A stretch of 63,205 nt of DNA, the filler included, from Kipferlia bialata (lineage: Eukaryota), in assembly GCA_003568945.1 (NCBI GenBank). It is 5 parts of 4 records of this genome, joined end to end, with 100 filler letters (N's around TTAATTAATTAA, not from the genome) between each part and the next. Parts side by side here need not be neighbours in the genome. Positions count along the whole stretch, not along the records: positions 20,059 to 31,288 come from BDIP01000406.1; 4 more parts are not named here. One strand, 5' to 3'. Below are positions 23,201 through 26,200 of the stretch, in pieces (position 1 is the first letter of the stretch; each line of letters begins with the position of its first letter). The notes beneath the pieces are model-generated. The model saw only the letters and a program-made list of their open reading frames with translations, ran no database searches and was not told the DNA's origin. A program made the position numbers and the translations under genes.

Positions 23201-26200
23201 GGCAGTCTGCAGGATCTGGGGTGAGGTGTATATATACATATCATTTGTATATAGATACAATTATGGGAAAGAGAAATGAATATATAATGAGAACATGAAG
23301 AACACGAAGGGAGATGTTTGGTACCTTCTCCACAATGGGCCTGACCGAGTCACCAGTGGGGAAGCGGTCCCTGATCTGATAGATTAGAGCCAGGACTGAG
23401 AATACAACATAAGTCAAAGAGAGATGGAGACAGGGAAAGAGAAAGAGAATACAGTAGTATGGTAACAAGACATACCCTGGGGTGGTCTCTGATCTGATAG
23501 ATTAGAGGCAGGACTGAGAATACTACACCAAAAGATAGAAGACTAAAGATTGTAGAAATACTGTTAGTTATCTAGATAATATGCAGAAAGTACGTACCCT
23601 TGGGTGGTCGATGATCTTGTCCAGCAGGTGGAATGATGCGAATGTGGTGATTCTCTTGATCAGAGACTGAGTGGCACGCATGGGGAGGTGCTTGCGCATG
23701 GCGTGGTGCTCCTAGAGATTAAGGGGGTAGAGGAATATAAGGGTGTAGAGAAATATCTGGACACCAGTGGGGAATTGTGCATATATATATGTGTGTGTGT
23801 ATATATACCTCATAGTCGGTATCGTCATCATCCCCATGGTAGTTCCTGCTGCGCCTTGCCCTTCTGCCACCCCTCTCCGTCTGGTACTGCTCCTCGTCCT
23901 CCTCCTCGGGGCCTGGGGTAAGGATTAAGGGTGCAGAGAGGGGGAGAGAGAACTAATACATACAATAAAGAAATGTATACATATACAATATACATACCTA
24001 GCACGTCCTCCCAGAAGTCCTTGTCCCCCATGTTGGCCCTCTTGTCAACGGCAGAGTGGGTCCTGGGGTGAGACCGTATATATTCAGCGATACAAAGGGA
24101 ATTGCAAGAGTGGAGGAGTGGGTCCTGGGGTGAGACAGTAACATAGTAATGCGTACATGAGATATACTGAACAGCAGAGCGGTCCTGAAGCAAGCATATA
24201 TACGACGATCTTAGCACAGAGTACGGAATATCGAATACAATTACACATTCTAATCAATGTATACCCATTACCTTGGCTTGTACGTGGACTGCACCCCCTG
24301 CACTGTGGCCTCGCCCTGCTTGTCCAGGTTGGCCTGGAGTAAGATATATACAGACACACATATATATCCATCAGCACACTTTATTTGAAGTGTGAATCGC
24401 GTAGAATATACCTTGTGAGTGAGACCCAGCCTCTTGAAGTCTGAGGTGTCTGAGCACTAGTATATACTTATACATCCACATTAAGAATTCACAATAATAA
24501 TAGTGAAGAAGGAATGGAGACTTGGAGTAACATAACTACCTTGTGTGTAAGACCCAGCCTCTTGAAGTCTGAGGTGTCTGACACCAGGTTCTGGACATTG
24601 AAGGCAGACAGGAACGACTTGGCCTGGAGAGTTAGAGAGAAAGAACACGCTAAACACTTCTATAATAAATTCAATGAGATGTGTATCATATAGTTTGAAG
24701 CATATCTACTATGTCCTCCTCACCTTTGTGGACAGGTGGTCTCCGCCGACCTCGCAGATTTCCTGGGGGTCAGAGACATACAGAGGGGACCTCGAAAAGA
24801 AAACACATTTAGAGATAGAATGAGCATATGTAGTGATATCATGGGTACGTACAGCTCTGTTGAGGATCTCGTCCAGGTCCACGTTCTCCATGACACCAGA
24901 CTGGTCGATGGAGGCATCGTCAGAGGACTGGGGTGAGAAAGGAAGGGAATGGGCCCATATAAATACATCATCAAACAAGTATCATATATATTCAAGTGTC
25001 AATGGAGGCATCATCAGAGGACTGAAGGCTATACACCAGATACATAGGGAATAAGCATTTGAGGGGATATGGTACCTTGAACAGTGCCTCTGTACCGAAC
25101 CTGAGCACATCACGGAGCTCCTTCTGGTCGATGGTGGCTGAGGGGTCAGAATCAATCAGTATATGTATATATATATAATAATATGTATATATATATAAAC
25201 ATAGGTATCATATTAATGCTATCTTCCCGTCTCTTACTACTGTATGTATACAAAGAAACATGTTAGAATACAGACGTACACTTTGCCTTCTCTGACCCGT
25301 CTAGTGACTGGATCAGCACGTGGTCCAGGACCATCTTCCTCTTGGCCCTCTCAAGAATCTCCTCCTCAACCGTGAAGGCAGTCACAAACCTAAGGATAAG
25401 ACAAGATGAAACAGCAACAAGTAGAGAGAGAGAGGCTCCTCAACGGTGAAGGCAGTCACAAACCTAACAGTCAGATGAAAAGAACGAAGAATAGATATAA
25501 AGAATATCCTTGAAGGCAGGAAATATACGATCTCGTATGGATATTCACTATCTTCACGGTACCTGTAAATGTTGACAGACTTCTTCTGGCCGATACGGTG
25601 GGCACGGGCCATGGCCTAGGGTGAGGGGGAATTCATATATATACCAATAGTCATACATAAAAGAAAGGTGAAGTGCTACCAATGCGTAATAATTATATGT
25701 ATGCATCAAAATATTACCAACCTGCAGATCGTTCTGGGGGTTCCAGTCCGAGTCAAAGATGACCACGGTATCAGCAGTGGCGAGGTTGATACCAAGGCCT
25801 CCAGCCCTGACAGTAAGAGACACTAAGACTCACATATATAATAAGAGTGATCAGAAATACATGAAGGTATATGAAACCACAGGGCTACATATCTATACCT
25901 GGTTGATAGGAGGAACACAAAGTCCTCGCTGCCCTTGGCGTTGAAGTGGAGCATGGACTCACGCCTGAGGGTGAGACATAAACTATGCGATATATATATC
26001 GTGTAGAAACTCACGTACCTGTGCTCTGAGGATGTGCCTCCATCTAGTCTCTGGGAGGCAAACTGCTTCAGCTTGCAGTACCTGGGTGTGAGAATACAAA
26101 GTACAATTATGACGAGTGTTCAAACACCGTTACATATGGGAATCTGGTATATATATATGTACATATACATATAAACGCAAGTACTCACTGAAGTACATCA

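What the first reader, a model, noticed from the sequence alone, without database searches (positions are those of the whole stretch)
23376..23600. Chimeric 18-nt micro-exon apparently born by duplicating a whole intron (possible intron gain caught in the act)
Seen, minus strand: the upstream CHD exon ends ATC ATC GAC CAC CCA AGG|gtacg and the downstream exon starts ctaatctatcag|ATC AGG GAC CGC. Between them, 23476-23493 reads ctaatctatcag|ATC AGA GAC CAC CCC AGG|gtatg. This is the start of the downstream exon fused at shared GACC to the end of the upstream exon. It has both splice sites and preserves frame (IRDHPR). The two roughly 100-nt flanking introns share about 30 nt at their 3' ends. 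Inference: a microhomology-mediated tandem duplication produced a new intron plus micro-exon.
Basis: partly seen in the sequence, partly recalled or inferred. Interest (0 to 1): 0.75.

Follow-up and report, generated by a model that had tools for sequence, protein, structure and literature searches.

The report
Skipped chimeric pseudo-exon among allele echoes
The 18-base 'micro-exon' is real DNA but is left out of the one assembled spliced transcript, so it is not a working new exon; it is one of about 60 leftover copies of exon ends in this protist's introns, and because those copies differ from the real exons mostly at silent positions they were likely copied from other working versions (alleles) of the same genes.

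Summary
Observation confirmed: 23493-23476 (minus strand) is the downstream exon's start fused to the upstream exon's end. It has both splice sites, is in frame, and lies in a Chd1-like gene matching Kipferlia bialata records. A DNA-run contig spans it unchanged. Minor inclusion is not excluded. Only the last 34 intronic nt of the two halves are alike, so a whole-intron duplication is inferred, not seen. The larger result is that this is the one two-sided case among 60 'echoes' of exon ends inside introns. Echo-exon differences are mostly synonymous: 49 of 68 in validated frames, and 30 of 34 taking one echo per exon, against about 43% expected from duplication plus neutral decay. So the micro-exon's two silent changes do not show translation. 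Best reading: slipped recombination between diverged alleles left a piece of one working allele beside another. No donor allele was seen. Interest 0.5.

The parts
23598..23711 (-). Upstream coding exon (38 codons, ends IIDHPR), P0002 residues about 1058-1095
   Evidence: Laid as one piece of spliced contig X2 record 9 with 0 differences
23376..23597 (-). The intron actually spliced in the assembled transcript, 222 nt, GT-AG
   Evidence: Record coordinates 2047 to 2225 fit only without the 18 nt; the joint itself was not among the 15 of 41 joints printed
23494..23597 (-). Intron half A (104 nt), own donor and echo acceptor
   Evidence: echo acceptor score 2.9 against 3.1 for the used one
23476..23493 (-). 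18-nt chimeric pseudo-exon: downstream-exon start plus upstream-exon end, would give IRDHPR; skipped
   Evidence: absent from record 9
23376..23475 (-). Intron half B (100 nt), echo donor and the used acceptor
   Evidence: echo donor score 7.1 against 8.0
23325..23375 (-). Downstream coding exon (17 codons, IRDRFP...)
   Evidence: 51.0 nt-equivalents of X2 depth in its bin
23484..23527 (-). Copy of the 3' splice region (34 intronic plus 10 exonic nt), 93% identical to 23366-23409
   Evidence: family D5
23604..23617 (-). Imperfect homology patch in the upstream exon, 11 of 14 identical to 23364-23377; likely exchange point
   Evidence: 4 of 54 junctions reach 11 of 14, none more
23364..23377 (-). 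Partner homology patch at the start of the downstream exon
20280..31158 (-). Host gene: Chd1-like chromatin remodeller, 55 exons, 5'-partial, 1573 aa, identical to P0002
24409..24453 (-). Example one-sided 5'-splice-site echo of exon end 24581-24537; 2 differences, both synonymous
   Evidence: X1 contig 6 links both copies
21206..21342 (-). Two 3'-splice-site echoes of exon 21160-21060, both skipped; one Ala codon has three states in three copies
   Evidence: joint 21159-21384 in X2
22503..22529 (-). Example 3'-splice-site echo, identical to 22406-22432
25436..25467 (-). Example 3'-splice-site echo, one synonymous difference

Best explanation
The 18 nt are a pseudo-exon that the assembled transcript skips inside one 222-nt intron, and they likely arose when two diverged, working alleles of the Chd1-like gene recombined out of register at an imperfect 14-nt match shared by the two flanking exons. 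Shown: the DNA arrangement, the skipping in the assembled transcript, about 60 similar echoes in the window, and their synonymous bias. Inferred: the left part (upstream exon, intron half A, first bases of the downstream exon) came from one allele and the right part (last bases of the upstream exon, intron half B, downstream exon) from another. That would give silent-only differences in the exon-derived bases, a conserved 3' splice region and unalignable intron interiors. The same slip with one end in an intron gives the common one-sided echoes. Inferred: such slips survive because the outer splice sites keep being used; 18 nt is likely too short to be recognised (the shortest exon of the gene is 39 nt), and single use of an echo site would give a stop or frameshift.
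For: Skipping: (11 of 11 checked record coordinates match a model with no echo included). Real DNA. Echo density: 97 near-repeat pairs at 35-450 nt spacing against 1 at 1535-1950 nt in 20059-50000; 12 of 14 CHD introns of 146 nt or more hold an echo against 0 of 40 shorter ones (10, 2 added). Geometry: 29 of 30 donor echoes lie downstream and 25 of 26 acceptor echoes upstream; median unit 101 nt. Synonymous bias: 60 echoes, 98 synonymous and 61 non-synonymous differences, pN/pS 0.22; CHD alone 15 and 3. Frames validated by RNA or P0004: 49 of 68 distinct differences synonymous, P 9e-7; one echo per exon 30 of 34, P 5e-8, against a null of 0.43. Echo against echo: 24 third, 10 first, 0 second positions of 34. 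Homology often stops within 2-5 nt of the splice site. Use of one echo site alone gives a stop or frameshift. Context from papers (passages): K. bialata is suggested to be diploid by k-mer peaks (PMC5874029); metamonads lack NHEJ and are proposed to rely on homologous recombination (PMC8516963).
Against: No second allele was seen: X1 contigs run unbroken across several introns here with no diverged copy laid at 90% or more, and the metagenome scan found no relative. The model needs past synonymous diversity of roughly 10-15% followed by loss of heterozygosity, which is untested. The 5' two-thirds of the intron halves show no homology above controls. The annotation-free spacing test is weak: 115 of 277 spacings are multiples of 3 (P 0.003), and 53 of 133 for one pair per cluster outside the CHD gene (P 0.07). 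In 38429-42000 only 5 of 19 differences are synonymous (unvalidated gene model). Two echoes carry stop codons, so later decay does occur. 31 of the 60 echoes rest on my own unvalidated gene predictions. One genome, one sample.
Confidence: 0.55

Rival explanations
1. The duplication happened on one chromatid with identical copies, and ordinary recombination or gene conversion with other alleles later re-templated the exon or the echo while the intron parts decayed. The echo still records allelic silent variation, but not from its birth.
For: Gives the same synonymous bias, the sharp end of homology at splice sites and several codon states among tandem echoes.
Against: Conversion between echo and exon alone cannot push the per-site silent excess beyond about 2:1 (my calculation); observed about 4.6:1 overall and 14:1 in CHD. 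It still needs a highly diverse recombining population. Clean intron-only tandem copies are scarce among the 96 pairs (read by eye; low-complexity pairs were filtered out, 96 of 369 kept).
Confidence: 0.22
2. One reading: a nascent in-frame micro-exon with a newly gained intron, included in some transcripts and kept by selection on the protein.
For: Both splice sites score like the used ones; frame is kept; both differences are silent; assembled contigs drop rare isoforms (tool caveat).
Against: Absent from the spliced contig and from P0001-P0003. Silent bias and intact sites are also the rule in untranslatable one-sided echoes. In-frame microhomology is available at 40 of 54 junctions.
Confidence: 0.1
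3. Plain tandem duplication of the whole intron on one chromosome followed by neutral decay; the silent changes are chance.
For: Fits the 18-nt length exactly; two silent changes of two has probability about 0.18 under the null; stop codons in two other echoes show decay.
Against: The window-wide synonymous excess rejects the null of 0.41-0.43; decay would not leave 34 nt at 94% next to 70 unalignable nt.
Confidence: 0.07
4. Two separate one-sided events, a 3'-site echo and a 5'-site echo, happened to abut.
For: One-sided echoes are common and often stacked; only the 3' tail of the halves is homologous.
Against: The two parts meet with no filler exactly in an 11-of-14 match between the two exons; only 1 such chimera in 198 introns scanned.
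Confidence: 0.05
5. Assembly artefact: two haplotypes of a diploid were joined in tandem.
For: Would give silent-only differences and unlike introns; the assembly holds redundant records of this gene and one gap-overlap artefact at 40539-40643.
Against: A separately assembled contig of DNA run X1 crosses the junction without a difference at normal depth, and other X1 contigs cross other echoes.
Confidence: 0.02

Closest known systems
[quoted passage not shown] 2011 PMC3265369, abstract)
   Same: A local duplication supplies ready-made splice sites.
   Different: The classic form duplicates an exonic AGGT segment and creates a spliced intron with novel sites. Here existing splice sites were duplicated, both breakpoints lie in adjacent exons, and no additional intron is spliced in the assembled transcript. 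[quoted passage not shown]
Potato RdRp intron gain by a duplication crossing an intron-exon boundary (Ma et al. 2016, PMC4974935, abstract)
   Same: The duplicated unit crosses an intron-exon junction and inherits the branch site, pyrimidine tract and acceptor.
   Different: There a new donor was recruited and a new intron is spliced. Here the copy is skipped, the event type is frequent (60 echoes in the window), and the copies differ mostly at silent sites.
Pseudo-exons and duplicated exon-intron junctions (general knowledge; PMC9052919 seen as a search listing only)
   Same: Exon-like sequence with intact splice sites inside an intron that the spliceosome ignores.
   Different: Chimeric order (downstream start before upstream end) and an apparent coding-selection signature in non-coding copies.
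Sister stwintrons and introner-like intron duplication (PMC8469720, passages)
   Same: An intervening sequence holding two sets of splice sites; origin linked to break repair.
   Different: Those are nested, symmetrical and spread to new loci. These halves are side by side at the same junction with exon-derived bases between them; two-step splicing was not tested.

Membership tests
[quoted passage not shown] | Local duplication supplying splice sites | tested here: met
   44-nt copy of the 3' splice region plus a copy of the exon end and donor
[quoted passage not shown] | The new splice sites are used in mRNA | tested here: not met
   Spliced contig leaves 176 nt, not 194; minor isoforms are invisible in contigs
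[quoted passage not shown] | Absent in outgroup orthologues | tested here: inconclusive
   No other protein aligned over P0001 900-1300; no metagenome locus; the representative search never ran
Whole-intron duplication | Both intron copies homologous along their length | tested here: inconclusive
   Last 33 nt far above 276 control pairs; the rest is not
Functional micro-exon | Flanked by AG and GT, frame-preserving | tested here: met
Functional micro-exon | Included in transcripts | tested here: not met
   for the assembled isoform only
Pseudo-exon | Intact splice sites but skipped | tested here: met
Inter-allelic unequal recombination product | Copies differ as working alleles do (synonymous excess) | tested here: met
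Inter-allelic unequal recombination product | Donor alleles carrying the echo variants exist | not testable with these tools
   No genome held, one sample only, no relative found
Chd1-like remodeller (host gene) | Chromodomain plus SNF2 ATPase; best solved relatives are Chd1 | tested here: met
   Pfam Chromo, SNF2-rel_dom, Helicase_C; weak HTH_CHD1_Hrp3 E 0.0085; Chd1 chains top the PDB list

The most novel reading that the evidence does not exclude
The introns of this free-living fornicate are an archive of lost alleles. A frequent out-of-register recombination between diverged homologues keeps depositing exon ends from other working alleles into introns (12 of 54 introns of one gene), doubling intron length in steps and occasionally making a ready, in-frame micro-exon like this one. 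A single genome would then reveal a hyperdiverse, recombining population (silent diversity of 10% or more) and a mutational route to new exon-intron structure.
Probability: 0.45. Interest if true: 0.75.

Novelty: new variant of a known kind. Interest (0 to 1): 0.5.

Why it matters
As an intron gain the site is a near miss: the structure exists but is not used. The surrounding pattern matters more. Non-coding copies that carry a coding-selection signature are unexpected. If they come from other alleles, they give evidence of recombination and very high diversity in a free-living fornicate from one assembly, and a testable mechanism for intron-length growth in a lineage reported to lack NHEJ. 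They also show that spliceosomes here ignore strong duplicate splice sites within short introns, and they warn that gene finders will wrongly include such echoes (mine included this micro-exon). I found no description of the pattern in 8 literature searches, which cover open-licence papers only.

Tried and rejected
No whole genome is held, so no genome-wide count was possible. The run search listed no run on record as RNA; X2 is a guessed RNA run whose record 9 is spliced. Only contigs, not raw reads, were available, and only 20150-28050 was laid. Outgroup test: only the Kipferlia cluster aligned over P0001 900-1300; 332 metagenome pattern matches, none confirmed; the representative-protein search never ran. 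A single-sequence fold of the region had mean pLDDT 45 and no significant PDB match, so it says nothing on whether IRDHPR would be tolerated. I first read the four CHD records as diverged alleles and rejected that: the proteins are identical over 1572 aa, and P0001's N-terminus is encoded by this window's own upstream sequence. The annotation-free periodicity test was only weakly positive. GACC as proof of microhomology repair was rejected (48 of 54 junctions have one). Earlier findings: none in 2 look-ups. Rows dropped before counts: 273 of 369 repeat pairs as low-complexity; 1 of 61 echoes as an N-gap overlap; 2 mismatch columns that belong to the other half of the chimera; 31 of 60 echoes for the validated-frame count. 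Supplements of the genome paper were not read.

Full report
1. The observation. On the minus strand the exon 23711-23598 ends ATCATCGACCACCCAAGG|gt, the stretch 23493-23476 reads ag|ATCAGAGACCACCCCAGG|gt, and the exon 23375-23325 begins ag|ATCAGGGACC; the intron halves are 104 and 100 nt and the 18 nt translate IRDHPR in frame. Joining the downstream start to the upstream end at GACC predicts 18 nt that differ from the observed ones at two positions, both synonymous. A 44-nt copy at 93% covers 34 intronic and 10 exonic bases. The last 33 nt of the halves score 58 where 276 control intron pairs reach at most 22, but the remainder is not exceptional (26 of 276 as high; first 30 nt, 112 of 276). 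DNA run X1 has a contig across 23167-23773 with no difference or gap at depth 494, like its neighbours. X1 may be the source sample, but its contigs are a separate assembly, so the junction is in real molecules.

2. The host gene. A 55-exon model (31158-20280) gives 1573 aa, identical to P0002, a record named Kipferlia bialata KIPB_005426. It has chromo, SNF2 and helicase-C domains and Chd1 chains as best solved relatives. The junction follows residue about 1095, some 70 residues before a weak HTH_CHD1_Hrp3 hit; that this is the DNA-binding region is my inference.

3. Is the micro-exon used? X2 record 9 is a 3606-nt spliced contig. It maps 23713-23598 to record 1932-2047 and 22933-22794 to 2225-2364. 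The 176 nt in between equal the three exons of 51, 52 and 73 nt; with the micro-exon it would be 194. All 11 checked coordinates from record 310 to 3425 match the model with no echo included. X2 depth in bin 23318-23581 is 7.59, which is 39.3 x 51/264; 10.27 would be expected with 69 nt. The skip joint itself was not printed (15 of 41 joints and 16 of 377 pieces were shown), so this rests on coordinates and depth. Contigs drop rare isoforms and X2 is RNA by guess only, so minor inclusion remains open. P0001-P0003 lack IRDHPR, but annotation in the genome paper was transcript-guided (PMC5874029, passages).

4. It is one of many echoes. In 20059-50000 there are 97 near-repeat pairs at 35-450 nt spacing against 1 at a control spacing. 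Against exon models there are 61 echoes, one of them an N-gap overlap. Donor echoes lie downstream of their exon (29 of 30) and acceptor echoes upstream (25 of 26). In the CHD gene 12 of 14 introns of 146 nt or more hold an echo and 0 of 40 shorter ones do (two of the 12 were added). RNA skips two intact acceptor echoes in 21384-21161. The finding is the only true two-sided chimera among 198 introns scanned (the other 3 rows are the gap overlap and an ordinary echo).

5. The echoes look as if they had been coding. Over 60 echoes and 1961 exon-derived columns there are 98 synonymous and 61 non-synonymous differences (pS 0.194, pN 0.042); in CHD 15 and 3, the 3 lying within 4 nt of alignment ends. 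Duplication plus neutral decay predicts a synonymous share of 0.41-0.43 (random changes in the echo, silent ones in the exon). P0004 confirmed my frames for 7 of 8 testable source exons in a second gene, plus one that is itself an echo in the right frame; the failure was an echo mispredicted as an exon. With validated frames only, 49 of 68 distinct differences are synonymous (P 9e-7), and 30 of 34 taking one echo per exon (P 5e-8). Between two non-coding echoes, 24 of 34 differences are at third positions and none at second. Against this: the annotation-free spacing test is weak, one unvalidated region shows 5 of 19, and two echoes contain stops. Because echoes that cannot be translated show the bias, the micro-exon's two silent changes are no evidence of translation.

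6. Mechanism. Non-coding copies with silent-only differences are best explained if both copies were working exons until recently, that is, different alleles. An out-of-register exchange between homologues, left part from one allele and right part from another, gives exactly this: silent differences, conserved splice regions and unlike intron interiors. Here the exchange falls in an 11-of-14 match between the two exons, the joint best among 54 junctions (4 reach it); GACC alone is common (48 of 54). Survival is inferred from splicing: the outer sites keep being used, the 18 nt are under half the gene's shortest exon (39 nt), and single use of an inner site gives a stop or frameshift. Papers give context, not proof: two k-mer peaks suggesting diploidy (PMC5874029, passages); no NHEJ in metamonads and proposed reliance on homologous recombination (PMC8516963, passages); a reduced spliceosomal protein set in K. 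bialata (PMC6679479, passages). The main weakness is that no donor allele was seen: X1 shows one version here and no relative was found. A close rival is duplication first and allelic re-templating later; both need a diverse recombining population.

7. Comparison and novelty. It works like junction-crossing tandem duplication (PMC3443670 passages; PMC4974935 abstract; PMC3265369 abstract) but fails the defining test for intron gain, use of the new sites. It is a pseudo-exon. It differs from stwintron duplication (PMC8469720 passages). Eight searches showed no report of dense, synonymous-biased exon echoes in this species; subscription papers and supplements were not covered.

8. Verdict. Observation confirmed; interpretation partly supported (origin plausible, intron gain not realised in the assembled transcript). 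New variant of a known kind. Interest 0.5, carried by the echo pattern and not by the micro-exon. Most novel reading, introns as an archive of lost alleles: probability 0.45, interest 0.75.

Noticed in passing
window 26562-26476 (minus): GC-AG intron in the CHD gene (exon ends CAG|gcatgt), required by the RNA coordinate sum and by identity with P0002.
   Followed up: partly
window 20059-31288; P0001-P0003: Four locus tags (KIPB_002442, 003093, 003633, 005426) encode the same 1572 aa on different contigs; one has a Dpy-30 domain fused at the N-terminus. Redundant assembly or an identical multi-copy segment; unexplained.
   Followed up: partly
window 1-17000 and 50000-63205: Intron-rich genes with almost no echoes, against 2-5 echo clusters per 2 kb in most of 20000-50000; introns are shorter and more GC-rich in the echo-poor gene 19861-10163.
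   Followed up: partly
window 19959-20058, 31289-31388, 38329-38428, 58341-58440: 100-nt spacers (N44, TTAATTAATTAA, N44) join separate sequence pieces, so neighbours across them need not be contiguous; the CHD gene and P0004 do share a 19956-nt contig in the records.
   Followed up: partly
window 40539-40643: 50-nt perfect repeat on both sides of a 5-N gap: likely a scaffolding overlap artefact.
   Followed up: yes
window 35014-35458 (plus): Four copies of one exon end of P0004 (exon plus three echoes) with three states of one Ala codon.
   Followed up: partly
window 42175-45610 (plus): Predicted 15-exon gene that looks like a sirtuin-family protein (label from recall, not tested); 7 echoes, 10 of 13 distinct differences synonymous.
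   Followed up: no
window 21160-21060 (minus): C-terminal exon of the CHD protein carries a CxxC..C motif ([11 protein letters not shown]), possibly a zinc site; not tested.
   Followed up: no
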